From Myxococcales bacterium (GTDB lineage: Bacteria; Myxococcota_A; UBA9160; SZUA-336): a DNA stretch of 64,000 nt. Below the pieces are notes generated by a model. It did not search any database and was not told where the DNA came from. It was given only the letters and a program-made list of their open reading frames with translations. Shown here piece by piece: positions 10,869 through 53,572 of this stretch. Within the stretch, counting starts at the first letter, position 1, and every line of letters starts with the position of its first letter. A program made the position numbers and the translations under genes. The DNA lies in contig JABSQV010000130.1 of assembly GCA_013215565.1 (NCBI GenBank), forward strand, positions 8,880 to 72,879. The letters run 5' to 3'.

Positions 10869-10960
10869 GTTTCGCCTCGCTGGCGTCAGGTTGCTACCCG
10901 TGTACCACGCTAGGGGTAGTCGGCTCAAGATCACGGGCTACGATGGCGATGGAGGTGCCT

Positions 10961-14569: not shown

Positions 14570-15547
14570 CTAGGCAGCGATCCCGACGAGGATGGCGGCA
14601 CCCAGGGTGTTGGCGAGGGTGAGCGCGCCGTCCCAGAAGATGTCGAACTCGTCGAACTGGCTCGAGGACTTCGCCAGCGGCATCACGGTGAGCGGGGTCA
14701 ACTCGGCGATGTAGCAGTAGCGGGTGTTGACCACGATGATCGCGGTCGTCACGGATCCGCTGTAGGCGGTGACCTTGGTCCCGTTGAAGGTCAGCACATC
14801 GGGCATGCCCGTCGTGGTGATTAGGGGGATCCCATCGTAGGTCCGGACGCGGAAGCCGGCCGCGATCTCGACCATGTCGTTGAACTGCTGCTGAGCCTGG
14901 AGCTGCGCGTTCAGGAGTCGCCGACCCTTGCGGCTGGCGAGGATGACGAGATCGGATCGGTTGCCCGAGCCCTTCACCGCGTCGATGGTCTCGTCCAGCT
15001 TGTCGAGGGTGAGCGCGTCACCGGTCACCGTCGTGGTCTGCAGGATGATCTGCGAGGCGGTGGCCTGGGTGAGCGTGATCAGCCCATCGAACTGGTCGGC
15101 GTCGATCGCGATGTCGCCCGTGACCAGGCCGTCCTCGAAGGTCTCGGAGAAGTCGCCGGTCCGCCCGACGATCTCACCGGCGAGCACGTCGCCGTAGGAG
15201 CGCCCGGTGGCCTGCAGCTTGCGAGTGACCTTGCCGCGAACGATCAGGGTCTTGCACGGGAGCGAGACCTGCACATACGTGCCGGTGCCCTCGGTGGGCT
15301 CCGTGGTGTCGTCGATCCACTCGGCCGAGGAGCCGGGGGTGCGCCGGTTGATGTACTCGGCGTTGCCCGACATCGGCTTGCGGGGCAAGACGGCGGCCGT
15401 TCCCAGTTCCCGATGATGGATCTGCTGGACGGTGCGGTTGATGTTCGTCTGGAGCAGGACGGTGCCAGCACCAGCGACGTTGAGGGCTCGTTCGAAGCGT
15501 TGACGGCGCGCCGGATCGAAACCTGCGAAAGCGGGGGAATTGCTCAT
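14570..15547 (-). CDS. major capsid protein
   Basis: 325-aa protein directly downstream of protease/scaffold ORF and upstream of connector; composition typical of HK97-fold capsid proteins. Confidence 0.65.
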   Translation of the reverse strand: MSNSPAFAGFDPARRQRFERALNVAGAGTVLLQTNINRTVQQIHHRELGTAAVLPRKPMSGNAEYINRRTPGSSAEWIDDTTEPTEGTGTYVQVSLPCKTLIVRGKVTRKLQATGRSYGDVLAGEIVGRTGDFSETFEDGLVTGDIAIDADQFDGLITLTQATASQIILQTTTVTGDALTLDKLDETIDAVKGSGNRSDLVILASRKGRRLLNAQLQAQQQFNDMVEIAAGFRVRTYDGIPLITTTGMPDVLTFNGTKVTAYSGSVTTAIIVVNTRYCYIAELTPLTVMPLAKSSSQFDEFDIFWDGALTLANTLGAAILVGIAA

Positions 15548-15574
15548 GATGGGTTCTCCGTAAGGAGCCCCTGG

Positions 15575-17774: not shown

Positions 17775-20417
17775 TCAAACAGGCGGTCGGTTCCCGCCAG
17801 ACAGCGGAACGGCTCGGCCGGCGTTCACCTCGTCCCTGGTCCACATGACCAAGACACATCGGCACCGGCCTCCGCACTCGGTCGCCCCACCGGGCATCGT
17901 GGACAACTGCGACACGGGAACGAACCCTCGGGCGCCCTCGATCGAGCAGGTCGGGCACATGCGGTTGTCCCCGACGTTGACCCACTCGACCATCCACTCG
18001 ACGGCGGCGGGTTGACCGTCTGGGCCAGTCCCGGCCTCGGCCGATCCGTCGAGCAGCCCCTCGGTGAAGCTCTGGTTCGACAACTCGACCAGCTTGCCCG
18101 ACCAGTTGCTGATCCGGTGCTTCTGAGACTCCATCACCGCGCCGATCGAGAGCAAGACCTCCTCGGCGCTCGCACCAGCGGTGAGGCCGACCGGGGCCGG
18201 CTTGACCGCTCGGGCGTTGAGTGCGGATCGGGTCTGACCATCGTCGGTCACAGCTCCGACCACGGCGGCAAGACTCGCTCGCAGATCGGCGATCAGCCCG
18301 CCGGGGTCGCAGAGGAAGCGCATGGCGCGATCCCCGTAGGCGGCCGACCGGGCATCGATGTCCTCGAGGACGGGCAGGCCGGTGAAGTTCGCGGCAGCAT
18401 CGCGACCGATCCGACCCACATCGCGGTAGACCCCGCTGGTCGACAATGCCCAGTCGGTCTCCAGCTTGTCGAGCGCGCGACCGATCGCCTGGGTCAGACC
18501 CAAGGCGTCGTCGGAGTCGAAGTTGGTGGTGTACCGAGAGGAGACCGCGGTGAGCACATCTCGGGTGGCTTGGTCGTACAGAGGTTCGACCCTCCGCGCA
18601 TATTGGGCGGTCTGCTCCCACAGCTCGGAAAGCTGCAGCGTCCGAACGTTGGCGAACATCCCGCGCGGTTGCCACTCGCTCGGGAGGTCATCGATCAGCG
18701 CCCGCTGCTGGATCTCAGCGCGCACCTCGCCGGGGGCTTCATCGTCCTCGGGGTTCTCGGTCCCCGCCCCTGGGTCATCGACCGACCCTCCGCCTCCGCC
18801 ACCGCCGCCGCCGCCGCCGCTGGGAGGGGTGTCGTCATCGTCATCAGGATCTGGATCCTGGCCGAGGACGTTGGCGATGATACGCTCGGCGCTGACGAGG
18901 AGCTGGAGAGGGACTGGACCCTGAGGTGTGTCGACGGTCGCGATGTCGCCGCCACCGAGCGGGGGCTGGCCGATCTCCTTCCTCGCCTCGTTGCGAGTGA
19001 GTAGACCCTCCTGAACCAAGGCGACCAGCGTGTCGGCTACTTCCTTACGCTCGGCTGGGGTCAGCTTCTCGTCGCGGTCGAACCTGAAGCGGACGGGCGC
19101 CCCAGAGTTGCCCTGAGCGTCGAGCACCAGCGGCAAGATCCTGGCGTTGATCTTGCCCTCGATCAGTTCGAGGATCGGGTTGATGAGGTGAGAGGATCCG
19201 ACCTCAAGCTGCACCTGGCCGACGGCGCGCGGGATGTCCTCGCTCGCTCCCATCTCGACGGGCATGACCCCGAACACTCGCCAGATCGTGCGGCGAACGT
19301 CCTTGACCACGTTGATGAAATCCACGTCCTTGTTCGAGCGGCGCAGCTCGACCCACTTGGCGCCCGTGGCGGTCGGGTCAGCCGATGTGACCACGCGGAT
19401 CTTGTGGTCCTTGCCCCGCATCTTCTGCAGGTCGGCCTTGGCCGCCTCGGCCGCCATCCCGGCCAGGCCGGTGAGAACGAGAATGCCGGGAGGGATCTCG
19501 TCGGCGTCGAAGGTGAGCATGGTGTGCTCAGCCTGTCGCAGCATCGTGGTAATCTCGTTGAGGATCGTTTCGATGAGCGGCACGCCCTCGACGCCGCTGG
19601 TGTTGGCGAACATCCGCAGGTAGACGATCTGCCTGGGCGAGAAGAGGGGGTTGATGGTTGGGGTGCCATCGTGCTGAGCGATCTGCCCGAGTTGCTCCGG
19701 GGACAGCACCTGGGGAACGATCGCCCCGGTCCCGAGAAGATCTTGCTGGTAGCCCATCACCCGGCCGTGGGTGTCGACGAGAGGTCGGATGTCCCCACCT
19801 CGCAGCGCGACCAGCTCCTCAAGTTTGTCGCCGACCCCGGTTGTGATCCGACCTGTCTCCTCGTCGGTCTCCATCGAGGTGTCAAACACGTTCTCGATAA
19901 CCCCGGCATCGAAGACCAGCAGGTCGGTGATCCACTTGGTCATCACCTCTTGCCAGGTCTCACCGTCCTCGTTGGGCGCCTGCAGGAACCGCTCGGCTTG
20001 CTGGGCGGCATCGAGCGCGGACTCATACCCCGCCTCGGCCGGGTCCAACTCGGGCTTAATCATGTTGCCCCAGGTCGCGACCCGACGGACGATCGCGTCG
20101 ATGGCTGCTCGGACATCGGGTGAGCGTTGGTAGACCAGCCAGAGCTGCTCGGTCGTCAGGACGCGGTTGACCCGACCCTGCTGGTAGCTGGTGTCGAGAC
20201 CAAAGAGGGCAGACCCCGCCGACCGACCAACTCGGTCTCGGGTGTCGAGCATCGGTCGGCTGTGACCGGCTGCGCCCTGCATCCAGAGACCACCGGGCTT
20301 CTCAGCCTTCTTTCGTCGGAGTCGAACCACGCCGGTGGTGTTCGTTGCGAGGACGCGGACGGTCATGTTGTGAGCCCTCCCTGCCTGCGAAGGTAGCACG
20401 GCAGCGGGAGTGCTCAC
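17775..20417 (-). CDS. portal protein with C-terminal MuF-like head morphogenesis domain (880 aa)
   Basis: Size and position downstream of terminase region; internal D5/G11 linker (PDPDDDDDTPPSGGGGGGGGGGG); C-terminal CPTC...C cluster typical of MuF/SPP1 gp7-like domains. Confidence 0.7.
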   Translation of the reverse strand: MSTPAAVLPSQAGRAHNMTVRVLATNTTGVVRLRRKKAEKPGGLWMQGAAGHSRPMLDTRDRVGRSAGSALFGLDTSYQQGRVNRVLTTEQLWLVYQRSPDVRAAIDAIVRRVATWGNMIKPELDPAEAGYESALDAAQQAERFLQAPNEDGETWQEVMTKWITDLLVFDAGVIENVFDTSMETDEETGRITTGVGDKLEELVALRGGDIRPLVDTHGRVMGYQQDLLGTGAIVPQVLSPEQLGQIAQHDGTPTINPLFSPRQIVYLRMFANTSGVEGVPLIETILNEITTMLRQAEHTMLTFDADEIPPGILVLTGLAGMAAEAAKADLQKMRGKDHKIRVVTSADPTATGAKWVELRRSNKDVDFINVVKDVRRTIWRVFGVMPVEMGASEDIPRAVGQVQLEVGSSHLINPILELIEGKINARILPLVLDAQGNSGAPVRFRFDRDEKLTPAERKEVADTLVALVQEGLLTRNEARKEIGQPPLGGGDIATVDTPQGPVPLQLLVSAERIIANVLGQDPDPDDDDDTPPSGGGGGGGGGGGSVDDPGAGTENPEDDEAPGEVRAEIQQRALIDDLPSEWQPRGMFANVRTLQLSELWEQTAQYARRVEPLYDQATRDVLTAVSSRYTTNFDSDDALGLTQAIGRALDKLETDWALSTSGVYRDVGRIGRDAAANFTGLPVLEDIDARSAAYGDRAMRFLCDPGGLIADLRASLAAVVGAVTDDGQTRSALNARAVKPAPVGLTAGASAEEVLLSIGAVMESQKHRISNWSGKLVELSNQSFTEGLLDGSAEAGTGPDGQPAAVEWMVEWVNVGDNRMCPTCSIEGARGFVPVSQLSTMPGGATECGGRCRCVLVMWTRDEVNAGRAVPLSGGNRPPV

Positions 20418-20441
20418 ACGGAGAGGCGCCGATGTCGAGGA

Positions 20442-26999: not shown

Positions 27000-27212
27000 C
27001 CGTGCTGGGTGATACCATCCAGTGCCCATCGTGAAGGCGAAGGCATCCCCGAAGCGGCGTTCCTGCCCGACCCCCTCTCTGTTGGTACTAAGCGGTGTGG
27101 GAGGGCAGGGACGTCCAACCTCTGGTCGAGGGGTCGGCGCGCGGAACGGGTCATCGCGAACAGCTACACCAGCGATGTGCGAGGAGCCCAGTAAGTCGCG
27201 CCGGCCCTGAGA

Positions 27213-28946
27213 TCAGAGCGCCGAGTACGAGCCACCCTGTTGCAAGAGGTCGTAGGCGATCCGGTCGTAGACATCGGCCAGGCGGAAGTGGTCGGCGGCG
27301 CTGCCTTCATGCCAGACGATCCGGCCCTTGTCCTCGTTGAGCACTCTGACCGGGGCGCGCATCTGATCGCTCCATCCGAGCACGGTGAACACGTCGGCGG
27401 GGAACGTGCGGCGCCTCTCCTGAATGTCGGCGAACGACACATCGAACACGGCCGTCCTGTCCACCCTGACTTCTTGGATCCGGTACTTGAGTTGCATCCC
27501 GTAAGGCAGCGCACCAACTCGCGGTGTCGGGAAGAACCGACAGAGCCAGACCTGGGCGCCCCCGTTGTTGATGAAGTAGTCCCTCAGCTCTTGCGCCTTG
27601 TGGGTCTCGGGCTGGGCGTCGATCACGCATGACTTGACGTGGTAGCGGATCAGCGCATCCTGCACCTCGTCGAAGGTGCGGCACGCCTGCACCAGCACAG
27701 CTCGGCGCACCGGGGGCAGGCTCGCGTCGGGCTTGCCGTTCTGGCCCTTGGCGGCCTCGATGACGCTGATGGACAGGTTCATCACCGAGCCCACATCGAT
27801 CCCCGCGGTCACGGTCAGCCGTCGATATTGGTCCCCGCCCGAGTAGTCGAGGTTGTCCCCGATGGCGGCGGCCTCCAGCATCGACTGGTCCAGCCTCGCC
27901 CCGGAGTACTCGAATGGGATCCCCAGCACCGAGCAGTAGAACGCGGCGAGCTTGGTCGGGTCGCCCTGCGCCTTGAGCCACTCCAGGTACAGGTCGGTGA
28001 GGCGCTGAGACAGGACATCGAGTCGCGACATCCAATAGCCGCGTGTCGAGCCCTCCCCCTCGGCGACCCAGAGTGCTCCAGCAGCGACCCGATCGAAGGG
28101 CTCGGTGCATCGCCGACACACGGGTCGGATGTCGGGGCCGCCCTCCCAGTTGCCCTGGACGTGGTTGTGGGCCTGGGCGCCCGCCCACCCCTTGTGGTCG
28201 CGAGGCAACCACTGCCCAGTGCCCTCGTCCCTTCGGACCACGTTGATGAACCAGTCCACGGGCTGGCGCTCGCCACAGTGTCCGCACTGCATGTACCAGC
28301 GACGGCGATCGCTCTCATCGTAGAGGCGCGAGATCCCGACGTTGGGCAGCGTCGGGTTCCCCAGTCGGATCATCTGGGGGTAGGGGCTCTCTCTGAGTCG
28401 GTCCTTGGCCTTGGCGAGGTTCTCTGGATCGCAGTGGTCGAACTCGTCCACGATCAGCAGGTCGGCCGAGAACTCCACGAAGTCGCCGGGGGTGTTCGAT
28501 CCGAGGAACAGCATCGAGCCCGCGCCGAACTTCTTGAGCTTCAGGCTCCCCGTCCTCGCCTTCTTGGCCTTTTCGTTGCCCATGGTCATGCCGCCGGGGC
28601 ACCGCTCACGGTATGCGGGCACGAATCGCAGGAGGGGATCCACCCGCTGCTTCACGAACCGATCTCGGATCGAGTAGGTCGGAAGCACATAGGCAACGAT
28701 GCGACCTTGCCACCCAGCCTTCTGAAGCGCGATCTGGACCGACAGTTCGGACATCCCTGTCTGCACGGCCTTGCGGATCACCCAGTCGTTGCAGTTGGCG
28801 GCATCGGCGTACAACTCGATGAGGTACGGCTTGTCGACGAACGACATTGGCGTGCCGCGAGTCGATTGATGATGCGACAGCGCGAGACCCAGGACGGGAT
28901 GCTCGGCAGAGAGCTTCGCCATCGTCGAGTGGTACTGGTCGAGCAT
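27213..28946 (-). CDS. terminase large subunit (lambda GpA-like)
   Basis: KAVQTGMS Walker-A variant resembling lambda gpA KSARVGYS; LLIVDEFDH Walker B; 577 aa; first gene of leftward late operon. Confidence 0.8.
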   Translation of the reverse strand: MLDQYHSTMAKLSAEHPVLGLALSHHQSTRGTPMSFVDKPYLIELYADAANCNDWVIRKAVQTGMSELSVQIALQKAGWQGRIVAYVLPTYSIRDRFVKQRVDPLLRFVPAYRERCPGGMTMGNEKAKKARTGSLKLKKFGAGSMLFLGSNTPGDFVEFSADLLIVDEFDHCDPENLAKAKDRLRESPYPQMIRLGNPTLPNVGISRLYDESDRRRWYMQCGHCGERQPVDWFINVVRRDEGTGQWLPRDHKGWAGAQAHNHVQGNWEGGPDIRPVCRRCTEPFDRVAAGALWVAEGEGSTRGYWMSRLDVLSQRLTDLYLEWLKAQGDPTKLAAFYCSVLGIPFEYSGARLDQSMLEAAAIGDNLDYSGGDQYRRLTVTAGIDVGSVMNLSISVIEAAKGQNGKPDASLPPVRRAVLVQACRTFDEVQDALIRYHVKSCVIDAQPETHKAQELRDYFINNGGAQVWLCRFFPTPRVGALPYGMQLKYRIQEVRVDRTAVFDVSFADIQERRRTFPADVFTVLGWSDQMRAPVRVLNEDKGRIVWHEGSAADHFRLADVYDRIAYDLLQQGGSYSAL

Positions 28947-45514: not shown

Positions 45515-45847
45515 TCAGAAGGGGGCGGTCATATCTTCTTGGGTGATCTGGAAGGTCGCGTCACCAGCAGAGGCGCGAGAGCTGCGCTTGGTGAGGATGA
45601 TCTCGCCCGCGTCGGCGTTGATCCGCAGCTCGAGCCCCAGCTCGGAGAGCAGGATGAACACAGCCGGCCAGGGCGGAACGCGCTTCTCGGCACCCGTGGC
45701 GAAGGAGCTGATCGTCTGTTTGCGGAATCCCAGGTGCTCTCCGAGCTTGACGGAGCTCCGACCGGGCTCGGCCTCGATCCATCTGCGGCGCAGCTCGGCG
45801 AAGATCCAGTTGCGGGGTCGACCTTGCTGGGTGGGCTTCGCGGTCAT
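45515..45847 (-). CDS. XRE-family HTH DNA-binding protein
   Basis: LGEHLGFRKQTISSFATG Cro/CI-type HTH; ATGA overlap with sigma gene. Confidence 0.5.
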   Translation of the reverse strand: MTAKPTQQGRPRNWIFAELRRRWIEAEPGRSSVKLGEHLGFRKQTISSFATGAEKRVPPWPAVFILLSELGLELRINADAGEIILTKRSSRASAGDATFQITQEDMTAPF

Positions 45848-46401
45848 GCTGCTCCTTGCTCTCTTGTGCGGTCCCGCAGCTTGCGGAGTCGCCAGTTGCG
45901 AGCGGCTCGGGTGATCCCGAGCTTCTCGTTGATGTCCTCGGTCGACCAGTCCTCGAGGACGGTCTGCATCGCGACCGTCTGGGTCTCGTTGGCGATGGTG
46001 TACAGCTCGGCGACCCGCTGGTTCGCATCGTGGTGGCGCTCGAACATGGTGACCAGATTGCACATCGGGTCCATGGACGTGACCTTGGTGCGCTGCCGCT
46101 GCTCGATCCCCACGTTCCGCGAGCGCACCCGCAACAGGCGCAGCCGGGTCAGGCTCGCCCGCGACTTGATCCAGGACCTGCAGCCCTGGGACGAGCAGTA
46201 GGGGCACGGCCTGGCCTTGTCGGAGCGCGTCGGGTCGAACAGATCGAACGCGGTGACGAGATCGAGGCAGAGATCCTGCTGGAAGTCGTTGGGGTCGATC
46301 CCGCGAATGCGGAACATGTTCGCGCGGCTGTACCGCTCGATGGCTTGGGCGTGCTGCAGGATGAAAACCCATGCCGGGTTCTCGGTTGTTGGGCGGGTCA
46401 T
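45844..46401 (-). CDS. sigma-70 family minimal sigma factor (regions 2 and 4)
   Basis: DLCLDLVTAFDLFDP region-2-like and STEDINEKLGITRAARNWRLRKLRD region-4 HTH; ATG at 46401 followed by repeat and GGGTAC-N5-GTACCC palindrome. Confidence 0.5.
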   Translation of the reverse strand: MTRPTTENPAWVFILQHAQAIERYSRANMFRIRGIDPNDFQQDLCLDLVTAFDLFDPTRSDKARPCPYCSSQGCRSWIKSRASLTRLRLLRVRSRNVGIEQRQRTKVTSMDPMCNLVTMFERHHDANQRVAELYTIANETQTVAMQTVLEDWSTEDINEKLGITRAARNWRLRKLRDRTREQGAA

Positions 46402-46850
46402 TAGTCGCTGTCTCTCTCTGATGGTTGGGCGGATGGTAACAGATTGTGGGTACGAGGTGTACCCGGATCCCGCGACCTTTCCGGCATCGAAGACCAGAGC
46501 GGGAAGGGTGGGGCATAGCCGCGAGTTTCGATCCAGAGATGGATCATCCCGCCGCGTGCTGCCGCCGAGGGTGTGGGGCCTCCGTCGAGCAGTCGTCGGA
46601 GGCAGTGACTCACGATCGGATCGTTGCAGTGCTCGACGTAGAAGTCCCTGATCTCTTGTCGGATCCTGGGCCACCGTCGCGCCCACCGTCGCATGGTGTC
46701 GATGTCCCATCGGGTCAGACCGCCGTCGCCCTGCAGGGTGTCGATCAGCGCCTCGGCCAGCTTCTCCATCGGCTCCCATCGAGCGATCTCGGTGAGCGGG
46801 GCGATCTCCAGGGAGAGCATGATCAAGCTGGCTGGATCTCCCTTCACCAC
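46401..46850 (-). CDS. hypothetical protein; 3' end uncertain (reads through repeat)
   Basis: N-terminal two thirds protein-like (MVKGDPASLIMLSLEIAPLTEIARWEPMEKLAEALIDTLQGDGG); GC3 collapses before the repeat, true stop or frameshift probably near 46500. Confidence 0.3.
   Translation of the reverse strand: MVKGDPASLIMLSLEIAPLTEIARWEPMEKLAEALIDTLQGDGGLTRWDIDTMRRWARRWPRIRQEIRDFYVEHCNDPIVSHCLRRLLDGGPTPSAAARGGMIHLWIETRGYAPPFPLWSSMPERSRDPGTPRTHNLLPSAQPSERDSD
46402..46470 (-). repeat. start-associated repeat variant plus GGGTACGAGGTGTACCC palindrome
   Basis: CTCTCTCTGATGGTTGGG then palindrome ~46448-46464. Confidence 0.65.
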
Positions 46851-47071
46851 CCACCTCCATCATTGTCGATATCGATGTCGCACACCTCGTAGTCGGGATC
46901 CGTGCCGCCATCGTCACCCACGGCGTGCGAGCCGTCCTCGGCGCACCTCATGACAGAGAGCGTTCCGCCTCCGCTGAATAGCCACAGGGTATCGGGCCAG
47001 GTCTTGGCGAGGCGCCTCAGGGCGGCGATGGCCTTGGCTTCCTCGGGGGTCAGGTCGTCCTCGTCGATCAT
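46844..47071 (-). CDS. acidic hypothetical protein
   Basis: 75-aa ORF. Confidence 0.4.
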   Translation of the reverse strand: MIDEDDLTPEEAKAIAALRRLAKTWPDTLWLFSGGGTLSVMRCAEDGSHAVGDDGGTDPDYEVCDIDIDNDGGGW

Positions 47072-47162
47072 GCTGCCACCGACCGCATGAAGACCGGATC
47101 GGTCGCCCCGCCGAACTGGGAGCGGATGATGGCCTCAACCACCGGGGGCGGGACGCTGTTCA

Positions 47163-47426
47163 TTAGTTCGACCCCAGGTAGTCGATGAGGCGCTGCCGCG
47201 TTTCTGTGGGATCGTTCTGCCCTGCGGAGTCGGCCGGGATGTACACGTCCCACCAATCGAGCACCCACGCCTTCTTGTACATCGCATGGGTGATGAACAT
47301 CCGCCCGCCGCGTGCGGTGTAAACACACACCTCGGTGAACCTTCCGTCACTTGCTCGCGGACCGACGTGCTGGTCAACGACCCGCGCGCCAAACTCCCTG
47401 AGCGCCTCTGCCATCAGCTCCTTCAT
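47163..47426 (-). CDS. hypothetical protein
   Basis: 87-aa ORF, stop abutting VWA gene start. Confidence 0.45.
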   Translation of the reverse strand: MKELMAEALREFGARVVDQHVGPRASDGRFTEVCVYTARGGRMFITHAMYKKAWVLDWWDVYIPADSAGQNDPTETRQRLIDYLGSN

Positions 47427-47428
47427 CG

Positions 47429-48958
47429 CTACCTCCTCGGCACGACATTCGCCGCGCCTCGCTCTTTGTCATCGTGATTCTTGAGGTCGACGACCTCATC
47501 GCAGATCTCGCGCATCGCACCTGTGATCGAGCCCCTGGCGACCGTGAGCCCGAAGACCCGCATTCCGGTCTCCTCGCGGCGCCTGGCCAGCTCGGCCATC
47601 ACCGAGCTGCTCGCCGAGGCGTGCCCGTCGGTCACGAACACGATGTCGGAGCGGTCGTCGGCGGCCTGACCGTTCAGGGCGTACTTGAGGGGCGGGTTGA
47701 AATCGGTTCCGCCGCCAACGCGAGCGGTCACCAACTCCAGCGCGATGTCGGCGGGGCCACCGAGTGCGGTCTCGCCTCGGGTTCGACCCGTGTAGGTGTC
47801 GACATCGACGCGATAGGCGCGCCTCTTCTCGTCGAGGCGATGCACGCTGCAGACCCCACCGTTGAACCCGATGAAGGTCACGGCCCGCTTCTCCTTGATC
47901 GCGGTCTGCATGCAGGAGAGGGCGATGGCGCAAGCCAGCTGATGAGGTTGACCCGACATCGATCCCGAGCGGTCGAGCAGGACGGTCATCGGACCACGAC
48001 CCAGCACCTCGGTCCCGTCGAGCGCGTACTGGAGCAACGACCGCTCGACGACCTTCGCCAGAGTGAGGAGGCGCAGCTTGGGGTGCCGCAGTCCAACGAG
48101 CTGGGACGGGAGTACTCGGGACAGATCTGCGCCGCGCTCGATGCTGACGACCTCAGTGCGGGCGTCGGTCGTGCGGACCCGCTTCTTGGATGCTGCGATC
48201 CGCTGGATGCGTCCCGCCCTGCGGATCACGTCCCGGAGTCGCTTGTTCGACATCAGGTGCTCGGCGAGCTGCATGCGACCCGTGTCCTCCTTCTGGGAGT
48301 AGCCGGGAGGTGCAACTTCAAGACCGGGGGACAGACCGGAGAGTCCGGACTTGACCTCGACGATCTCCTCGTTCGCCTTCTCGGCGGCATCGCGCATCGC
48401 CGCCCGCATCATATCGACGGCTGTGGGCAGATCGCTCTCCTCACCGTTCTCGTCGAGGACGGGATCGTTGAGCTTGTCCCAGTCGCCATCGAAATCCTCG
48501 TTCTGGTCCTCGTCCTTCATGATGTCGGCGAGCTGCTCGCTGGCCGCCCTCATCATCGAAGCAGAGGCGATGGCCGCGAGATCGGGATCGCCGACAACGC
48601 GGGAGGCCAGCTCGGTGAACTCGGGGAGCTGCGAGAGCGCCTCATGCAGCGTCGGAACCCAGCGCGGGCACTTCGGCTCATCGAGCTTGGCGGGCTCGTT
48701 GTACAGTCGCGAGAAGACCTCGGTGCCGAGAGCGTCGGCCGTCGAGTGTGCGAACGACCGAACGCGGGCGACGGCGTTCTTGTTGTCCTCCTGCTCGACC
48801 AGGCCCTCCTCGATGACCTTGGAGGTCTGCAGGATCGCGTTGCCTACGGCCTTGCTGCGGTCACGTCGGATCTCAAACAGCAGGCGCTGCCACTCGCTGG
48901 TGTCGTAGGCGAGCTTGGCGTGGGTGCTGGTCTCGGCGGGCTTGCGTTTCGCGGACAT
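47429..48958 (-). CDS. von Willebrand factor A (VWA) domain protein
   Basis: ATG MSAKRKPAE abutting repeat; C-terminal VLLDRSGSMSG (DxSxS MIDAS) ... VFVTDGH. Confidence 0.6.
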   Translation of the reverse strand: MSAKRKPAETSTHAKLAYDTSEWQRLLFEIRRDRSKAVGNAILQTSKVIEEGLVEQEDNKNAVARVRSFAHSTADALGTEVFSRLYNEPAKLDEPKCPRWVPTLHEALSQLPEFTELASRVVGDPDLAAIASASMMRAASEQLADIMKDEDQNEDFDGDWDKLNDPVLDENGEESDLPTAVDMMRAAMRDAAEKANEEIVEVKSGLSGLSPGLEVAPPGYSQKEDTGRMQLAEHLMSNKRLRDVIRRAGRIQRIAASKKRVRTTDARTEVVSIERGADLSRVLPSQLVGLRHPKLRLLTLAKVVERSLLQYALDGTEVLGRGPMTVLLDRSGSMSGQPHQLACAIALSCMQTAIKEKRAVTFIGFNGGVCSVHRLDEKRRAYRVDVDTYTGRTRGETALGGPADIALELVTARVGGGTDFNPPLKYALNGQAADDRSDIVFVTDGHASASSSVMAELARRREETGMRVFGLTVARGSITGAMREICDEVVDLKNHDDKERGAANVVPRR

Positions 48959-49020
48959 CGGACTCTCTCTGTTGGTAGGTCCATGGTACACAATGACTGG
49001 GTACACCACAACCCCGACGC
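48959..49020 (-). repeat. start-associated repeat variant (GGTAGGTCCATGGTAC ... GGGTACACC)
   Basis: core abutting ATG of VWA gene. Confidence 0.7.
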
Positions 49021-49049
49021 AACGGATGATCGGCGTCGGGGCTCGACTT

Positions 49050-50195
49050 CTAGAAGCGGAGGCGGGACTTCAATTCGAGGGCGATCCGCTCGCGCATGGC
49101 GTCGATCTTCTGCGAGCACTCGAGGACACGGCTCGTCTGGTTGAGCAGCCCGATCTGGTCGCTGTATGCCTCAAGCATATCGGCCGCGCCGGTCGCGGCG
49201 AGCAGGAACGCCTGGCCCTTGGCGGCGAAGTCAACCTTTCGGTATTCGGCCGTCGCGAGATCGAGCGCCTTGCGCGCCTTGCTGATGTCGGGATCGATCA
49301 ACTTGGTGATCGCCGCGTCAACACTCGCGCGCTGGTCGGGCTCGTCCCAGAGGCAGTCGGAGAGGATGTCGAGATCTTCACGGGTGGCGACGGCGCGACC
49401 GTTGAGGAGCGCGTGACCCTTGATCAGTTTGATGGCCTTGCACCAGCGTCGATCGCTGACCACGATCTCATGGTCCATGGCGAGTTTCTCGCGCAGGTCG
49501 AGCACCGCGTCGATGACGGCATCGACGTTGACGGCTGCGGTCTGGGTGCGCAGGTCGTTGACTTGCTCGATGGTCAGCGAGGCCGTGATCTTCGGCTCAT
49601 CGGACGAGGACAGCAGACCGCGCAGCTTGTCGCGGTCGCTGATGTACCCGACCCACCGACGCAGGACGAACCGGTCGAACAGCGCGCCGAGGCTCTCGTC
49701 CTCGGGGAGCTCGTTCGACGCACCGACCATCATCTCCAACGGGATCGAGATCCGCTGGCCGCCGTTGTCGAACTGGCGCTCGTTGATGGCGGTCAACAGA
49801 CCGTTGAGGATCGCGCTGTTGGCTTTGAAGATCTCGTCGGCGAAGGCGACGGTCGCCTCGGGCAGATACCCAGCGGTGACGCGGCGGTACTGATCCTGCT
49901 CAAGTCCCTGCAGGCTGATCGGTCCGAAGACCTCCTCGGGGACGGTGAACTTGGTGAACAGCAACGACCAGGGCGTCCCGCCGAGGGCGGCCGTCAGGGC
50001 GTTGGTCAGCGCGGACTTCGCCGTGCCGGGAGGGCCGAGGAGCAGGACGTGCTCGCCCGCGAGCAAGGCGACCAGCAGGCAGGTCACCTCGCGGCTGCGC
50101 TCGATGAAGGCGCGGTCGAGGTCGACGCGCAGGTCTTGGAGCGCGGCGAGGGTGGTGGGGGCGGTCTGGGCGGTCAGGGCGGCTGGGGCGGTCAT
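49050..50195 (-). CDS. MoxR-family AAA+ ATPase
   Basis: HVLLLGPPGTAKS Walker A, ATVAFADEIFKANSAILNGLLTAINERQF Walker B/sensor typical of MoxR; ATG abutting variant B repeat. Confidence 0.7.
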   Translation of the reverse strand: MTAPAALTAQTAPTTLAALQDLRVDLDRAFIERSREVTCLLVALLAGEHVLLLGPPGTAKSALTNALTAALGGTPWSLLFTKFTVPEEVFGPISLQGLEQDQYRRVTAGYLPEATVAFADEIFKANSAILNGLLTAINERQFDNGGQRISIPLEMMVGASNELPEDESLGALFDRFVLRRWVGYISDRDKLRGLLSSSDEPKITASLTIEQVNDLRTQTAAVNVDAVIDAVLDLREKLAMDHEIVVSDRRWCKAIKLIKGHALLNGRAVATREDLDILSDCLWDEPDQRASVDAAITKLIDPDISKARKALDLATAEYRKVDFAAKGQAFLLAATGAADMLEAYSDQIGLLNQTSRVLECSQKIDAMRERIALELKSRLRF

Positions 50196-50280
50196 TTCGA
50201 TGTCCTCTCTGTTGGTGTGACTCCAAGGTAGAGGAGTCAAGCTCGAATGGATACCCATTAATCGGGTACTCCACCAAGAA
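50196..50280 (-). repeat. start-associated repeat, type B
   Basis: CTCTCTGTTGGTGTGACTCCAAGGTAG ... GGATACCC ... GGGTACTCC. Confidence 0.65.
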
Positions 50281-50360
50281 AGTTGGGCGGGTGGCTCACC
50301 TCGCCATCGCCCCCGGAGTGCTCTCCGGCGACGCGGCGATCTCGGTCTCGGGTCTCTGTA

Positions 50361-51575
50361 CTACGCGGCGGCTTCGGGCGCGGCCTCGACCGGGGCGGGG
50401 GCGGGCGCGTCCAGCTTGGTGAAGACGACGGTGGTCCCGCCCTTCTTTTTGGACAGGCGACCGCGCAGGTTCACCTCGGTCAGGGTCGCGCCGGCGTGGC
50501 GGGTCCAGAACGTGCGGTACTTGCCAGCCCACTCGGGAAACCCGGAGTCGGCGAGCTGCTCGACGGTCAGCTCCATGCCGTGCTTGTCGATGGCGGCTTT
50601 GATCTGGGTCTTCAGCTTCTCGCTTACACCCCGCGCCTTGCGCTTGCCATCGCCCTCGTCCTTCGCGAGTCCGAGGAGCGCGTTCGCCTGCTCGACGGCA
50701 TCGTCGATCTCGGTCTCCAGCTCGCCGAGTCCCAGGTGCAGGCTCTCGGAGTACAACTCGGCATAGGACTTGAGGGTGCGCAGCTCACCGAGCGCCTTCG
50801 CCAGGGAGTCGGCGCGCGGGCGTTGCTCTTTGGACTTCTTGGTCCAGTCGGCGAGGCGCTCGCGGATCCCGGCGAGGCTCTCGCTCGGGACCTTCTTGCC
50901 GTCGGCGACGTTGCCCATCAGGAAGTTCTTGGCCGCGCCGCCGATGCTGGTGCGGCTGGCCTCGGTGTCGGAAACGTGGGTGATGTGCAACGCGCTGTCC
51001 CCGATCTTGCTGACGATGCGGGCGAGCTTCTCGACATCGTCCTGGTGCTGCTTCGGGACGTAGTAGATCCCGCCCGAGTGCTGACGGACCGAGAATGCGC
51101 CGAACGCCTTGAGGGGCGCCTGGATGAGCACGGGGCGGATGAAGTCGTGGTCGAGGTACGTCCGGTCGCTGTCGGCCTGGGCGATGAAGCGGGTCGCCTC
51201 TTCGGTCTTGCCGACGGTCGTCCACTTGTCCATGGCCTTGTCGAACACGACGGTATCGACCTGCTCCCACCTGACCTCTTTGTCGTTGACGCGCTTGTGG
51301 GTCAGGATGCCGACCATCAGCGAGTCGGCGTCCTCGAACACGACCTCGGTGCGGTAGCGCGCCGCGTTGCCGCGTCCCTGCTTCCAGCTTCGGGCCGTGT
51401 CGCGGATCTCGGACACGCTGTTGAGATCGGGGACCACGCTCGGGTTCTCGCCTTCGGACTTCAGGATCTTTCGCAGTGCGGCGGGGGTCGTCTTGGTGTT
51501 GAAAAGATCCCACCAGACGAGGGCGCCGAGGCCGAGGGCCAGGTTGTCCATCATCTGCGTTTTGTCGGTCGTCAT
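50361..51575 (-). CDS. hypothetical protein (404 aa), first gene of leftward early operon
   Basis: ATG MTTDKTQMM abutting repeat; C-terminal Lys/Gly-rich tail. Confidence 0.5.
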   Translation of the reverse strand: MTTDKTQMMDNLALGLGALVWWDLFNTKTTPAALRKILKSEGENPSVVPDLNSVSEIRDTARSWKQGRGNAARYRTEVVFEDADSLMVGILTHKRVNDKEVRWEQVDTVVFDKAMDKWTTVGKTEEATRFIAQADSDRTYLDHDFIRPVLIQAPLKAFGAFSVRQHSGGIYYVPKQHQDDVEKLARIVSKIGDSALHITHVSDTEASRTSIGGAAKNFLMGNVADGKKVPSESLAGIRERLADWTKKSKEQRPRADSLAKALGELRTLKSYAELYSESLHLGLGELETEIDDAVEQANALLGLAKDEGDGKRKARGVSEKLKTQIKAAIDKHGMELTVEQLADSGFPEWAGKYRTFWTRHAGATLTEVNLRGRLSKKKGGTTVVFTKLDAPAPAPVEAAPEAAA

Positions 51576-51600
51576 CGTGTGCCTCTCTGTTGTTGTTTGG
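51576..51600 (-). repeat. start-associated repeat, truncated variant
   Basis: CCTCTCTGTTGTTGTTTGG abutting ATG 51575. Confidence 0.5.
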
Positions 51601-51825
51601 CATGAGGAAGGTCGCATCTGCTGCGTACACTTGCAACCAGGATCGGGAGGTTATTTCTAGGTTTCGTGGAAACCCCGTTGGACTGATGGCTTCTCACGAT
51701 CAGGACGCGAGGGTCGGTCGTATCCTCCTGCCGGAGGGCGAGTTTCGATGCCGCGCCTCTGAGGTTTCGGGTTGTGCTCGTACCCACTCCATGTGTACCT
51801 TGGCGTCACCAACAGAGAGGTCACC
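51576..51825. promoter_or_regulatory. divergent early control region with GGTTTCGTGGAAACC palindrome
   Basis: 250-bp spacer between leftward (51575) and rightward (51826) starts; perfect 6-3-6 palindrome at ~51661-51675; plus-orientation copy of start repeat at 51790-51825. Confidence 0.45.
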
Positions 51826-51967
51826 ATGGCAACGTCAGCCCACTACACGCTCGCCAGCATCCCGATGGACAAGCAGGTCAAGCAGCTCCTCCCCGCCTGC
51901 CCCGCCGCTCGACGGGATCGCGAGAGCGCGGATCTACTTGCGCGCCAAGGCGGCGGCGGAGGGCTGA
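51826..51967 (+). CDS. small hypothetical protein, apparent +1 frameshift in C-run
   Basis: MATSAHYTLASIPMDKQVKQLLPACPAA then high-GC3 continues in another frame to TGA at 51967. Confidence 0.3.
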
Positions 51968-52003
51968 CCGAGAAAACCAAGATTGGTGGTTGTGGTTCAC
52001 TTC

Positions 52004-52042
52004 TCCATTCTGTACCTTGGACCTACCAACAGAGAGGACAGC
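52004..52042 (+). repeat. start-associated repeat in plus orientation
   Basis: GTACCTTGGACCTACCAACAGAGAGGACAGC before ATG 52043. Confidence 0.7.
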
Positions 52043-52231
52043 ATGTACACGCTCCGCAACCCCGCAGCCATCTCCACCGGCCACACCCACTACGTGACCT
52101 ACGAGCCCCAGACCGACGGCACCGTCGTTGTCACTCGGGACGATTGTGTCATGAACACGATCGAGACCATGAGCCTCGATTCGGCACGAGCCGACTACCA
52201 TAGGCGCATCGCTCTCGGCTATAGAGCCTGA
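52043..52231 (+). CDS. small hypothetical protein
   Basis: ATG abutting plus-orientation repeat GGACCTACCAACAGAGAGGACAGC. Confidence 0.5.
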   Translation: MYTLRNPAAISTGHTHYVTYEPQTDGTVVVTRDDCVMNTIETMSLDSARADYHRRIALGYRA

Positions 52232-53572
52232 CGAGGCGAACGCCAACCGAGCGAAGCAGGGCATGCCGGCCTTGTCGAACCTCGGGCCCGGCCGTCTGAC
52301 CATCCGGCCCGCCCCGCGTGCCGTGGGGTCGGGTGCGCCTCCGACGAACCCCGCGGCTCGGACCTCGAGGAGGGCAACTGCATCGAGCTGGTCATGGAGC
52401 TCCATCGCCTCCCTCGACCGTCGCCAGTGTCGGGGGTGTGCTCGCGGTGTCGCCAACTCGGCGAGAACGTGGACCCCCAGGTGGCTCGTCCGCACCACAG
52501 CGACCCGACCCGACCACGCCGGCCGCTGGGCCGCCCACAGCTCGACGGCGCGCCCAGCGTCCGCCAGGGCGCGATTGTCGAAGGGCGCGTCGGTGAACCC
52601 GTCGAGGTCGACCGCGAGCCAGCGAGTCTCCACGGGCTCCCATCGAGCGGGCACCCAGCGCCCGTGAACCTCTCGCCAGCTCGACGGGGCCATCCCATCG
52701 AGCCCGACGAACAGATCGGGGAGATGTGCGAGCGGGATCCCGGAGCGGTCGGCCTGACGGCTGCTATCGATCAGCGTTCCCCACGCCCGGTCGGTGCCGA
52801 GACCCCGTTCGGCTGTTCGGAGGACCGTGAGCAGGCCGGTCGACCGTGAGGGAGAGTAGCGGACTCCTCTCGGTCCTCTTCGCCCGAGGAGCACGGAGAC
52901 ACGGCGAGCGGTGCGCTCCTGGATGTGTACTGTATCAATGCCCCGATCCAGATCTGGGCGAGGGGCTCGTCCGCGAGAGCGTCTGAGCTGTACCCGACCC
53001 CGATATCGCCGCCAGTACCCCGACGCCTCGCAACCGAAGCAGACGGCCGATCCCGTCTGCCCTCCCGCGTTGGGGTAGAGCGCCATCGACGGGTTCCGAT
53101 CATCGTGCCAGGGGCAGCATGTGATCGACTTGGGTCCACGCTCGATGGGCACGACCTCGATCCAGTCGTCGGTGTCGTCGTCGGTGTCGTCGTCGGTGTC
53201 CGACCACGATGAGCATGCCTCGATCGCGTTGGGGTCGACCAGGAGATGCTGACCCCAGGTCCGACCCGCTCGGTCGCGCAACTCGACTCCCATCTCCCTG
53301 GCCTCGTTGATGTGGACCGACGCCCACCCGAGGACATCGCGGACCAGATTCCAGGCGGTCCGCGCCGTCGCATAGGCGACCCCGCTCTCATGCCTGAGGT
53401 AGCTGATCGACAACTCGGTGTACCAAGACCCGGCGACGAGCTGCCGACGGTGGATCGCGATCCGCCTCAGCAGGCACCGCACCGCGTGCCCGCATCGCTC
53501 ACCGACCTCGGCGAGCAAGGTGTCGAGCTGCTGGCACAGATGTGCAACGGTGGGCGAGGGCGTGGGCGTCAA
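52230..53572 (-). CDS. primase-polymerase (PrimPol-like) protein with CHC2-type zinc finger; 3' end uncertain
   Basis: CCPWHDDRNPSMALYPNAGGQTGSAVCFGCEASGYW zinc-binding motif; RWLAVDLDG and SHLGVHV motifs of archaeo-eukaryotic primase fold; antisense orientation inside rightward module; central R-rich stretch suggests indel. Confidence 0.45.

What the first reader, a model, noticed from the sequence alone, without database searches (positions are those of the whole stretch)
47429..51575. Phage-encoded MoxR AAA+ ATPase / VWA-MIDAS protein pair with a 404-aa partner
Three consecutive leftward genes, each with its own start repeat. The 404-aa unknown ends in a K/G-rich tail. The MoxR-type ATPase carries GPPGTAKS and MoxR sensor residues. 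The 509-aa protein has a C-terminal VWA domain (DRSGSMSG MIDAS). MoxR-VWA pairs are chaperone or remodeling modules and appear in some anti-phage systems. Placement at the head of the early operon suggests a host-takeover or anti-defence role.
Basis: partly seen in the sequence, partly recalled or inferred. Interest (0 to 1): 0.7.

Follow-up and report, generated by a model that had tools for sequence, protein, structure and literature searches.

The report
Phage MoxR–VWA–DUF6744 three-gene remodelling module
Three neighbouring early genes of an uncultured phage encode a RavA-like AAA+ motor, a ViaA-like adaptor with an intact metal-binding site and a DUF6744 protein. The same trio recurs next to each other in many unrelated phages and mobile elements, so it is probably one machine, most likely acting on DNA-bound proteins, and nobody has studied it.

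Summary
Window 47429-51575 (minus strand) carries three genes of 404, 381 and 509 aa, each preceded by a copy of a phage-wide start cassette. gpB is a MoxR ATPase whose AAA+ module matches E. coli RavA (PDB 3nbx, E 1e-61) with all catalytic motifs, but it has no LARA domain. gpC is ViaA-like, with a C-terminal VWA domain and a complete MIDAS (D329, S331, S333, T418, D444). gpA belongs to Pfam DUF6744.

Every DUF6744 locus with enough flank (about 14 independent lineages) has a bpMoxR gene and a VWA gene on the same strand within about 5 kb. These include a cultured Moorella phage, an Actinomadura contig and an Ammonifex prophage. The gene order is permuted (A-B-C, B-C-A, B-A-C). Bacillus phage 0305phi8-36 and the haloarchaeal virus HVTV-1 carry all three genes, but apart.

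DUF6744 has no confident fold match in the PDB and no conserved catalytic residues. Its only recurrent fused domains bind nucleic acids (HARE-HTH, Rho_N/HeH, zinc finger).

Best reading: a mobile-element MoxR-VWA ternary remodelling module with a DNA-linked third subunit. An anti-defence role is untested and gets no direct support (no PADLOC hit). This is a new variant of a known kind, of moderate interest.

The parts
50361..51575 (-). gpA, 404 aa, a DUF6744 family protein. The core is residues ~16-292 (two alpha/beta subdomains plus a three-helix bundle). A small C-terminal domain spans 319-389 with predicted secondary structure H-E-H-H-E-E-E, followed by a KKKGG patch and an Ala/Pro/Glu tail.
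   Evidence: Pfam DUF6744 1.5e-6. A profile search finds 1729 representatives. AF2 model: pLDDT 74.7 for the full protein and 89.1 for the N-terminal 219 aa. Conserved positions are G17, G42, P49, R147, R164, G168, G169, Y171, Y172, V173 and L279.
49050..50195 (-). gpB, 381 aa, a MoxR-type AAA+ ATPase. Its RavA-like AAA+ module spans residues 20-287 and a ~90-aa helical C-terminus follows. It has no LARA domain.
   Evidence: bpMoxR 5e-57, AAA_5 and AAA_lid_8. RavA NCBIfam 2e-71, 241.5 bits, below the 681-bit equivalog cut-off. PDB 3nbx RavA 1e-61 over RavA residues 14-291.
50013..50036 (-). Walker A / P-loop GPPGTAKS of gpB (residues 54-61)
47429..48958 (-). gpC, 509 aa, a ViaA-like cofactor. 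The N-terminal ~320 aa are helical with an acidic stretch (DQNEDFDGDWDKLNDPVLDENGEESD). The C-terminal VWA domain spans ~325-446.
   Evidence: VWA_2 2.2e-6. ViaA NCBIfam 9e-14, partial and below the cut-off. PHROG 24053 9e-35. Homologs in Moorella and Bacillus phages are annotated as VWA or chaperonin subunit.
47960..47974 (-). MIDAS DxSxS motif (D329-R-S331-G-S333) of gpC. The remaining MIDAS ligands are T418 and D444.
   Evidence: the motif is conserved in nearly all VWA proteins linked to the trio
51576..51643 (-). Start cassette upstream of gpA. This is a degenerate copy with core ACAACAGAGAG at 51583-51593.
50196..50265 (-). Start cassette upstream of gpB: GGTATCCA ... TACCTT ... CCAACAGAGAG, then 9 nt, then ATG.
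48959..49025 (-). Start cassette upstream of gpC: ...GTACCATGGACCTACCAACAGAGAG, then 6 nt, then ATG.
49010..49043 (-). GC-rich hairpin directly after the gpB stop codon, followed by UUGUGGUGU. It resembles an intrinsic terminator.
   Evidence: RNA fold -23.2 kcal/mol, z -2.9

Best explanation
The three genes encode one ATP-driven protein-remodelling machine carried by mobile elements. It is a MoxR-VWA 'ternary' module whose third subunit is a DUF6744 protein.

Proposed mechanism:
- gpB forms a RavA-like AAA+ ring and supplies ATP-powered pulling or remodelling. This is inferred from homology; all catalytic motifs are present.
- gpC docks on gpB through its ViaA-like N-terminal and middle region. 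Its C-terminal VWA/MIDAS site holds an acidic side chain of a target protein. This is inferred from MoxR-VWA systems studied elsewhere.
- gpA is the specificity or tethering subunit, or the dedicated client. It is a non-enzymatic scaffold that in many relatives is fused to DNA-binding modules. The machine therefore most likely acts on DNA-bound protein complexes during the intracellular early or middle phase (replication, recombination or transcription set-up), not on the virion.

What is shown: the identity of the three domains, intact motifs, the tight and order-permuted linkage of the trio across unrelated elements, and the DNA-binding fusions.

What is inferred: physical interaction, ring formation, the client, the DNA context and the timing.
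For: 1. Domain identities and intact Walker A and B, sensor and MIDAS residues.

2. Linkage. DUF6744, bpMoxR and a ~470-630 aa VWA gene lie on the same strand within about 5 kb in all of these loci:
- the window, L001, L005, L006, L013, L015, L019, L020, L021 and L018
- the cultured Moorella phage MTATph1 (CDS0119, CDS0115, CDS0114)
- three further unrelated loci: an Actinomadura contig, an Ammonifex prophage-like element and a 122-kb element. In these the genes form tight operons in the orders B-C-A and B-A-C.
RavA-like MoxR genes are rare in phages: 30 of 50,697 records match gpB. The linkage cannot be chance.

3. Only the trio travels between lineages. The clade-specific neighbours p148, the sigma-like p185 and p110 are absent from the Moorella, Actinomadura, Ammonifex and 122-kb loci.

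4. Co-occurrence without adjacency. Bacillus phage 0305phi8-36 has ORF046, ORF063 and ORF066. The haloarchaeal virus HVTV-1 has genes 25, 57 and 59.

5. DNA link. Among 115 DUF6744 representatives the only accessory domains are HARE-HTH (6), Rho_N (6), HeH (1), a phage DNA-binding zinc finger (1) and DUF4357 (1).

6. Context. In all the phages examined the module sits among replication, recombination and transcription genes: PDDEXK exonuclease, Sak4/AAA_24, Toprim-DnaB, RecU, a small sigma factor, DnaN, RNR and RecQ. In the window it lies about 18 kb from the nearest packaging gene, the large terminase, and further from the structural genes.

7. No catalytic signature in DUF6744. The conserved positions are Gly, Pro, two Arg and aromatic residues, which fits a binding or scaffold role.

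8. Literature. MoxR-VWA pairs act as chaperone plus adaptor. Ternary systems add a third, specificity-giving protein (PMC7159879). RavA-ViaA interaction and the RavA domain map are described in PMC9489729 and PMC4124505.
Against: - No interaction, ATPase activity or expression data exist for any member.
- The window's own gpA lacks the HARE-HTH, HeH or Rho_N module. Its C-terminal domain shows no profile similarity to HARE-HTH and is modelled with low confidence. DNA association of this particular protein is therefore extrapolated.
- Only about 13% of the relatives scanned carry a recognisable DNA-binding domain.
- Much of the linkage sample comes from one broad clade of related siphoviruses, where synteny partly reflects shared ancestry.
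- Some phage MoxR-VWA pairs (Campylobacter, Aphanizomenon, faecal contigs) have no detectable DUF6744 within 7 kb. The third subunit is therefore not universal.
- Placement among early genes is weak evidence of function.
Confidence: 0.5

Rival explanations
1. Virion or tail assembly chaperone. As with ATV p618 (MoxR) and p892 (VWA), the pair would fold or assemble structural proteins, and gpA would be an assembly client or scaffold.
For: This is the only experimentally studied viral MoxR-VWA pair. ATV p618 binds p892 and virion or tail proteins, and its ATPase is stimulated (PMC4124505). ATV and SMV MoxR genes are weak tblastn hits of gpB. Jumbo-phage MoxR-vWA pairs have been proposed to assist virion assembly (PMC7824862).
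Against: - The trio lies in the replication, recombination and sigma-factor block. It is about 18 kb from the large terminase gene and further from the structural genes.
- The same kind of context is seen in the Moorella, Bacillus, Aphanizomenon and metagenomic relatives.
- DUF6744 relatives carry DNA-binding domains, not structural ones.
- The module also occurs in an Actinomadura contig with a ParA-like gene and with no structural-gene Pfam hit among the genes called in the 21-kb stretch examined.
Confidence: 0.12
2. Conflict system. The trio would be an anti-defence or host-takeover device, or a defence or superinfection-exclusion system carried by mobile elements, analogous to the MoxR-vWA ternary conflict systems.
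For: - gpB's best Pfam hit is bpMoxR, a family defined from MoxR-vWA-beta-propeller ternary conflict systems.
- The architecture (MoxR, vWA and a third conserved protein) matches the ternary theme (PMC7159879; PMC12839542).
- The module is confined to phages, prophages and other mobile elements, and is expressed from its own promoter-like cassettes in the early region.
Against: - There are no PADLOC hits for any of the three proteins.
- No effector domain (nuclease, peptidase, TIR and the like) is fused to the VWA protein or to DUF6744.
- The VWA domain is C-terminal as in ViaA, rather than an N-terminal vWA followed by effector domains.
- The trio is a fixed core block in every member of the phage clade, not a variable island.
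- gpB is more similar to RavA than to anything else with a solved structure.
Confidence: 0.2
3. Cofactor-insertion or enzyme-activation chaperone, as with CoxD/CoxE, NorQ/NorD, CbbQ/CbbO or BchI/BchD. The pair would mature a phage or host metalloenzyme, with gpA as the insertase or the client.
For: This is the commonest documented role of MoxR-VWA pairs (list in PMC7159879). The Moorella and Ammonifex VWA proteins hit VWA_CoxE. A cupin-like gene (dTDP_sugar_isom or FdtA hits) recurs a few genes downstream in L005, L019, L020 and L021, and an Asp/Arg-hydroxylase cupin lies next to the pair in L001. RNR genes lie nearby in the Moorella phage.
Against: - No cupin or metalloenzyme gene is detectable beside the trio in the window.
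- The putative client enzymes are not conserved with the trio across lineages.
- DUF6744 has no conserved His, Cys, Asp or Glu that could bind a metal.
Confidence: 0.08
4. gpA is merely a syntenic neighbour. The MoxR-VWA pair would work alone like RavA-ViaA, for example at the membrane or on respiratory complexes, and DUF6744 would have an unrelated function.
For: E. coli ravA-viaA is described as a two-gene operon (PMC9489729). Several phage MoxR-VWA pairs lack a detectable DUF6744 nearby. In HVTV-1 and Bacillus phage 0305phi8-36 the DUF6744 gene lies 8-15 kb from the pair.
Against: Adjacency is kept with three different gene orders in unrelated elements, with overlapping stop and start codons in L027 and L029. 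Every DUF6744-bearing genome examined also has the pair. Only the trio is shared between the window's clade and the Moorella, Actinomadura and Ammonifex elements.
Confidence: 0.08

Closest known systems
E. coli RavA-ViaA (MoxR AAA+ ATPase plus VWA cofactor)
   Same: gpB aligns with the RavA AAA+ module over RavA residues 14-291 (E 1e-61), with the same Walker A and B, sensor and lid (AAA_lid_8) features. gpC matches the ViaA profile over its middle region and the start of the VWA domain. Like ViaA, it has the VWA domain at the C-terminus. The two genes are adjacent and co-oriented.
   Different: gpB is 381 aa against 498 aa and lacks the LARA domain and the RavA C-terminal hit. Both proteins score far below the NCBIfam equivalog cut-offs (241 against 681 bits; 51 against 500 bits). 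The module is phage-borne, and a conserved third gene (DUF6744) is attached that is not part of the two-gene ravA-viaA operon as it is described. There is no indication of the LdcI, Nuo, Frd or membrane roles.
MoxR-vWA-centric ternary conflict systems (VMAP, iSTAND, FtsH and beta-propeller types; Kaur et al. 2020, PMC7159879)
   Same: Three-component logic: a MoxR ATPase, a vWA protein and a conserved third protein encoded together. gpB hits the Pfam family bpMoxR derived from these systems (5e-57).
   Different: The third component here is DUF6744, not a VMAP, iSTAND, FtsH or beta-propeller protein. The vWA protein carries no effector domains. The module is found in phages and mobile elements as a core early gene block rather than in the chromosomes of multicellular bacteria. 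A full-text search for 'DUF6744' returned no paper.
Acidianus two-tailed virus p618 (MoxR) / p892 (VWA) and other viral MoxR-VWA pairs (jumbo phages; haloarchaeal siphoviruses)
   Same: A virus-encoded MoxR ATPase paired with a VWA-MIDAS protein. In the haloviruses Hardycor1 and HVTV-1 the pair also sits in the replication and accessory module (PMC7911831). HVTV-1 additionally encodes a DUF6744 protein.
   Different: The ATV proteins are virion-associated and act in extracellular tail growth. The jumbo-phage vWA is fused to a metallopeptidase. Sequence similarity of gpB to ATV or SMV MoxR is low (about 32-36% over under half the protein). None of these reports mentions a DUF6744 partner.
Moorella phage MTATph1 CDS0119, CDS0115, CDS0114 and Bacillus phage 0305phi8-36 ORF046, ORF066, ORF063
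   Same: The same three families occur in cultured phages. Moorella: DUF6744 5.6e-61 to Pfam, ATPase 45% identical to gpB, VWA 33% identical to gpC, all within 4.2 kb. Bacillus: all three lie on one strand within 13 kb.
   Different: These are very different, much larger phages (176-219 kb) of Firmicutes. The genes are annotated only as 'hypothetical protein', 'ATPase' or 'putative metalloprotein chaperonin subunit'. The Moorella DUF6744 is the minimal 301-aa core without gpA's C-terminal domain.

Membership tests
MoxR AAA+ ATPases (RavA-like) | Walker A GxxxxGK[ST] and Walker B hhhhDE | tested here: met
   GPPGTAKS at 54-61 and VAFADE ending at 121. Both align to the RavA motifs.
MoxR AAA+ ATPases (RavA-like) | AAA+ sensor and arginine residues, and the RavA-type lid domain | tested here: met
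   GASNELPE, LFDRF and SDRRW align with identical RavA segments. AAA_lid_8 2.3e-20.
MoxR AAA+ ATPases (RavA-like) | Hexameric ring and ATP hydrolysis | not testable with these tools
   Needs biochemistry or cryo-EM.
RavA proper (NCBIfam equivalog NF010054) | Full-length match above the equivalog cut-off, including the triple-helical and LARA domains | tested here: not met
   241.5 bits against a cut-off of 681. The match covers profile positions 13-303 of 498 only. There is no LARA or RavA C-terminal Pfam hit. The protein is 381 aa.
VWA-MIDAS cofactors of MoxR ATPases (ViaA-like) | VWA fold with a complete MIDAS (DxSxS...T...D) | tested here: met
   VWA_2 2.2e-6, above the gathering score. D329, S331, S333, T418 and D444 are conserved across homologs.
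VWA-MIDAS cofactors of MoxR ATPases (ViaA-like) | Gene adjacent to and co-oriented with the MoxR gene | tested here: met
   There are 91 nt between the gpB stop and the gpC start. The same pairing is seen in all related loci.
ViaA proper (NCBIfam equivalog NF008230) | Full-length match above the equivalog cut-off | tested here: not met
   51.5 bits against a cut-off of 500. Only profile positions 217-367 match.
DUF6744 (Pfam PF20529) | Score at or above the Pfam gathering threshold over the ~314-position model | tested here: met
   27.8 bits against 27, covering positions 22-300 of 314. Relatives score up to 207 bits. A profile built from gpA homologs recovers Pfam-annotated members.
MoxR-vWA ternary conflict systems (Kaur et al. 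2020) | Third component is a VMAP, iSTAND, FtsH or beta-propeller protein | tested here: not met
   gpA hits only DUF6744. Its model is alpha/beta plus a helical bundle, with no propeller or NTPase fold.
MoxR-vWA ternary conflict systems (Kaur et al. 2020) | vWA component fused to variable effector domains | tested here: not met
   gpC ends with the VWA domain and has no other Pfam domain. The same holds in the relatives examined.
Known anti-phage defence systems (PADLOC-DB v2) | Any component matching a defence-system HMM | tested here: not met
   0 families at E <= 0.01 for all three proteins.
Viral MoxR-VWA virion-assembly chaperones (ATV p618/p892 type) | Proteins present in virions or encoded with structural genes | tested here: inconclusive
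   Gene placement is among early replication and recombination genes, not structural genes. Virion content cannot be tested here.

The most novel reading that the evidence does not exclude
DUF6744-MoxR-VWA is a previously undescribed fifth class of MoxR-vWA ternary system, and one specific to mobile elements. In this reading it is a DNA-tethered AAA+ remodeller that phages, prophages and archaeal viruses use to strip or reshape DNA-bound host or phage proteins. Targets could be nucleoid or silencing proteins, RNA polymerase or replication factors. In the window's phage clade this might prepare the template for the adjacent phage sigma factor, which could read the repeated start cassettes.
Probability: 0.3. 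Interest if true: 0.72.

Novelty: new variant of a known kind. Interest (0 to 1): 0.55.

Why it matters
MoxR-VWA pairs are widespread and poorly understood, and for most of them the client is unknown. Here a conserved, co-transferred third protein offers a direct handle on what a viral RavA/ViaA-like machine acts on. Its recurrent DNA-binding fusions point to nucleoprotein remodelling, a role that none of the MoxR-VWA systems listed in the papers read here is reported to have. The DUF6744 family is large (about 1,700 clusters at 50% identity), almost wholly metagenomic and uncharacterised. Two cultured phages, Moorella MTATph1 and Bacillus 0305phi8-36, carry the trio, so the idea can be tested at the bench. 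If the module is core to early development in a large clade of environmental siphoviruses, it would add a new step to phage takeover biology.

Tried and rejected
- Megablast of 47429-51700 against 50,697 phage records gave no match, so the phage is not a close relative of any deposited one.
- tblastn of gpA against the phage collection gave no match. Homologs in cultured phages appeared only through profiles or intermediate sequences.
- PADLOC gave nothing.
- PDB sequence search found nothing significant for gpC or for the DUF6744 profile.
- The AFDB50 Foldseek library was unavailable.
- The search for related loci failed with wide alignments. It found nothing in the GTDB genomes with either query, because the search is limited by the patterns it can derive.
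- The word-indexed homolog search with the 56-sequence profile returned only 6 proteins.
- hhalign of gpA's C-terminal domain against HARE-HTH showed no relation. The winged-helix idea therefore rests only on low-confidence predicted secondary structure.
- Aphanizomenon gp148 and Bacillus ORF071, which sit next to MoxR genes, are not DUF6744 by profile comparison.
- P0132, an apparent MoxR-DUF6744 fusion, joins MoxR residues 1-221 (no lid) to DUF6744 residue 159 onwards. It looks like a chimera or a deletion, so I did not use it as Rosetta-stone evidence.
- The sigma-70 consensus scan found no promoter in 46500-53000. The hairpin after gpA is not significant (z -1.6).
- The extra conserved genes p148, p185 and p110 were tested as possible fourth components. 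They are restricted to one phage clade and were rejected.

Full report
**What is in the sequence**

The window is a 64-65% G+C phage genome. It encodes a tape measure protein (572-4771), a major head protein (14570-15574), a portal (17775-20441) and a large terminase (27213-28946), all on the minus strand. From 53846 on the plus strand it encodes a PDDEXK exonuclease, a Sak4/AAA_24 annealing protein and an intein-bearing Toprim-DnaB primase-helicase.

The source is a 78,129-bp metagenomic scaffold binned with a Myxococcales MAG. The region of interest has no close relative among 50,697 deposited phage records.

The finding's three genes are real. gpA is 50361..51575 (404 aa), gpB is 49050..50195 (381 aa) and gpC is 47429..48958 (509 aa). 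An independent gene caller gives identical lengths.

**The three proteins**

gpB is a MoxR AAA+ ATPase.
- Pfam hits are bpMoxR 5e-57, AAA_5 and AAA_lid_8.
- Its AAA+ module aligns with E. coli RavA (PDB 3nbx) at E 1e-61 over RavA residues 14-291.
- The Walker A (GPPGTAKS, 54-61), Walker B (FADE), GASNELPE, DR and SDRRW segments are all conserved.
- It is not RavA itself. It scores 241 bits against an equivalog cut-off of 681, is 117 aa shorter and has no LARA domain (RavA domain map from PMC4124505).

gpC is ViaA-like.
- It has a helical N-terminal two-thirds with an acidic stretch.
- It matches the ViaA profile partially (9e-14).
- Its C-terminal VWA domain has a complete MIDAS (D329, S331, S333, T418, D444), which is conserved in nearly all homologs linked to the trio.

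gpA just passes the Pfam threshold for DUF6744 (27.8 against 27 bits). Membership is nevertheless secure. A profile of its homologs finds 1,729 cluster representatives (561 at E <= 1e-10), many of them annotated DUF6744.

**The start repeat**

Its approximate consensus is tTGCCGGTATCCAA, then 16-18 nt, then TAGGAT-GGACCTACCAACAGAGAG, then 5-8 nt, then ATG.

The 11-mer core occurs 16 times with at most 1 mismatch, against 1.4 expected. Thirteen of the copies sit directly before an ATG, including one before each of the three genes; the gpA copy is degenerate.

A stable hairpin follows the gpB stop codon. The three genes therefore look like individually driven units rather than a plain polycistron.

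gpA is not strictly the head of the leftward genes. A CHC2 zinc-finger ORF (51878..53572) lies upstream on the same strand. It is homologous to the gene that precedes DUF6744 in a related phage (3e-30).

**The key comparative result**

I fetched the genomic context of every gpA relative the tools allowed. In all loci with enough flank, a bpMoxR gene and a 470-630 aa VWA gene lie on the same strand within about 5 kb.

The loci fall into three groups:
- Nine lineages of environmental siphovirus-like contigs, down to about 20% gpA identity: L001, L005, L006, L013, L015, L018, L019, L020 and L021.
- The cultured Moorella phage MTATph1 (CDS0119, CDS0115, CDS0114).
- Three unrelated elements reached through the Moorella protein: an Actinomadura genome contig, an Ammonifex prophage-like element next to a serine recombinase, and a 122-kb element carrying Mom, methylase and RuvB genes.

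Gene order differs between lineages. It is A-B-C in the window, B-C-A in the Actinomadura and Ammonifex loci, B-A-C in the 122-kb element, and divergent in L005. Stop and start codons overlap in L027 and L029.

The other conserved neighbours in the window's clade are p148, a Sigma70_r2-like p185 and p110. They do not travel with the trio outside that clade.

Bacillus phage 0305phi8-36 (ORF046, ORF063, ORF066) and the haloarchaeal virus HVTV-1 (genes 25, 57, 59) encode all three families but not adjacently.

RavA-like MoxR genes occur in only 30 of 50,697 phage records. The association is therefore far beyond chance, and permuted adjacency is the classic signature of a functional module.

The reverse does not always hold. 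The Campylobacter, Aphanizomenon and some faecal-contig MoxR-VWA pairs have no detectable DUF6744 within 7 kb.

**What DUF6744 may do**

The AF2 model shows four parts:
- two alpha/beta subdomains, with pLDDT 89 when modelled alone
- a three-helix bundle
- a small C-terminal domain modelled at low confidence
- a disordered tail

Across 73 diverse members the conserved positions are glycines, a proline, two arginines (R147, R164) and aromatic residues in an 'R..GG.YYVP' hairpin. No acidic, His or Cys constellation is conserved, which argues for a binding or scaffold protein rather than an enzyme.

The most informative clue is domain accretion. Among 115 representatives, the only accessory domains are HARE-HTH (6), Rho_N (6), HeH/LEM (1), a phage DNA-binding zinc finger (1) and DUF4357 (1). 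They occur at either terminus. The one MoxR-DUF6744 'fusion' looks like a chimera, and I discount it.

The window's gpA lacks these modules. Its own C-terminal domain shows no profile similarity to HARE-HTH.

**Mechanism proposed**

By analogy with studied MoxR-VWA systems (RavA-ViaA, ATV p618/p892, CbbQO and others; PMC7159879, PMC9489729 and PMC4124505), I propose the following:
- gpB forms an AAA+ ring.
- gpC bridges the ring to a target through its MIDAS site.
- gpA provides specificity or tethering, or is the dedicated client.

Two observations suggest that the target is a DNA-bound protein complex during the intracellular phase. One is the DNA-binding fusions in relatives. The other is the constant placement among replication, recombination and transcription genes in very different phages.

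My confidence by step:
- about 0.85 that the three genes form one functional module
- about 0.7 that the MoxR-VWA chaperone-adaptor logic applies
- about 0.45 that the machine acts in a DNA context
- about 0.5 overall

The rivals are given with the results that would refute them: virion assembly chaperone, conflict, defence or anti-defence system, metal-cofactor chaperone, and mere synteny. None is excluded. PADLOC gives no hit, there is no effector domain, and the trio is a core rather than a variable gene block.

**Novelty**

Viral MoxR-VWA pairs are known:
- Bacillus phage 0305phi8-36 carries the annotation.
- The ATV pair has been studied experimentally.
- Haloviruses carry such pairs.
- Jumbo phages carry such pairs.

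MoxR-vWA ternary systems with VMAP, iSTAND, FtsH or beta-propeller third components have also been described.

A DUF6744 third component is not mentioned in any paper of the searchable library. The module's restriction to mobile elements and its DNA-binding fusions set it apart from those classes. I file it as a new variant of a known kind and score interest at 0.55. The domain annotation itself is ordinary. The conserved trio is a useful and testable lead, and two cultured phages are available for experiments.

Noticed in passing
window, minus strand: 11710, 21118, 22413, 24222, 30707, 31007, 34692, 35361, 48975, 50215, 51593; plus strand: 51809, 52026: A conserved cassette of about 60 bp precedes at least 13 genes. 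It has a -35-like GGTATCCA, a -10-like TAGGAT or TACCTT, then GGACCTACCAACAGAGAG and an ATG 5-8 nt later. It looks like a phage-specific promoter plus a short leader with the ribosome-binding site. The sigma-70 consensus scan finds no promoter in this region. A further copy at 27085 is not followed by an ATG.
   Followed up: partly
window 45844-46401 (-), with 46401-46847 (-) and 45515-45847 (-): The 185-aa gene three genes downstream of gpC is the homolog of genes that hit Sigma70_r2 in related phage contigs (L001, L015, L019, L020). It has no Pfam hit of its own at E <= 0.1. With its flanking 148-aa and 110-aa genes it forms a block conserved in all members of this phage clade. A phage sigma factor could be what reads the repeated start cassettes.
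   Followed up: partly
window 51878-53572 (-) and 51826-52231 (+): A CHC2 zinc-finger (DnaG-type) ORF lies upstream of gpA on the same strand. It is homologous over residues 28-448 to the 484-aa gene that precedes DUF6744 in L015. It has no stop codon for a further ~100 codons, so it runs antisense across two small plus-strand ORFs that each carry a full start cassette. Codon-position G+C suggests that the plus-strand 62-aa ORF (52043-52231) is the coding one there. The arrangement is unexplained.
   Followed up: partly
window 59229 to ~62300 (+): The primase-helicase gene (Toprim_2 plus DnaB_C, 1026 aa) also hits LAGLIDADG_3 weakly. Relatives in other contigs are about 660-680 aa, which suggests an intein or homing-endonuclease insertion.
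   Followed up: no
window 47163-47431 (-): The 87-aa ORF downstream of gpC starts 2 nt after the gpC stop codon, and a GAGGAGG ribosome-binding site lies inside the end of gpC. This suggests translational coupling. The ORF has no homolog in the related loci and no Pfam hit.
   Followed up: partly
L022 (HVTV-1, KC117377) 9815-10966; EF583821 175474-176307: DUF6744 is also present in haloarchaeal tailed viruses: HVTV-1 gene 25 (Pfam 3e-19) and its close homologs in HVTV-2, HCTV-1, HCTV-5 and HCTV-16. It is also present as ORF046 of Bacillus phage 0305phi8-36. All are annotated 'hypothetical protein'. HVTV-1 and Bacillus phage 0305phi8-36 also encode a MoxR-type AAA ATPase and a VWA protein elsewhere in the genome; the other four haloviruses were not checked for the pair.
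   Followed up: partly
L005, L019, L020, L021 (downstream of the VWA gene); L001 756-3824: A ~180-200 aa cupin-like gene (dTDP_sugar_isom or FdtA hits) recurs a few genes after the VWA gene in several related contigs. A ParB_N plus Asp/Arg-hydroxylase protein precedes the MoxR gene in L001. No counterpart was detected in the window.
   Followed up: no
P0132 (metagenomic protein, 541 aa): An apparent fusion of a MoxR N-terminal half (58% identical to gpB residues 11-216, without the lid) to the C-terminal 60% of a DUF6744 protein. It is probably an assembly chimera or a deletion derivative of adjacent genes in B-A order.
   Followed up: yes
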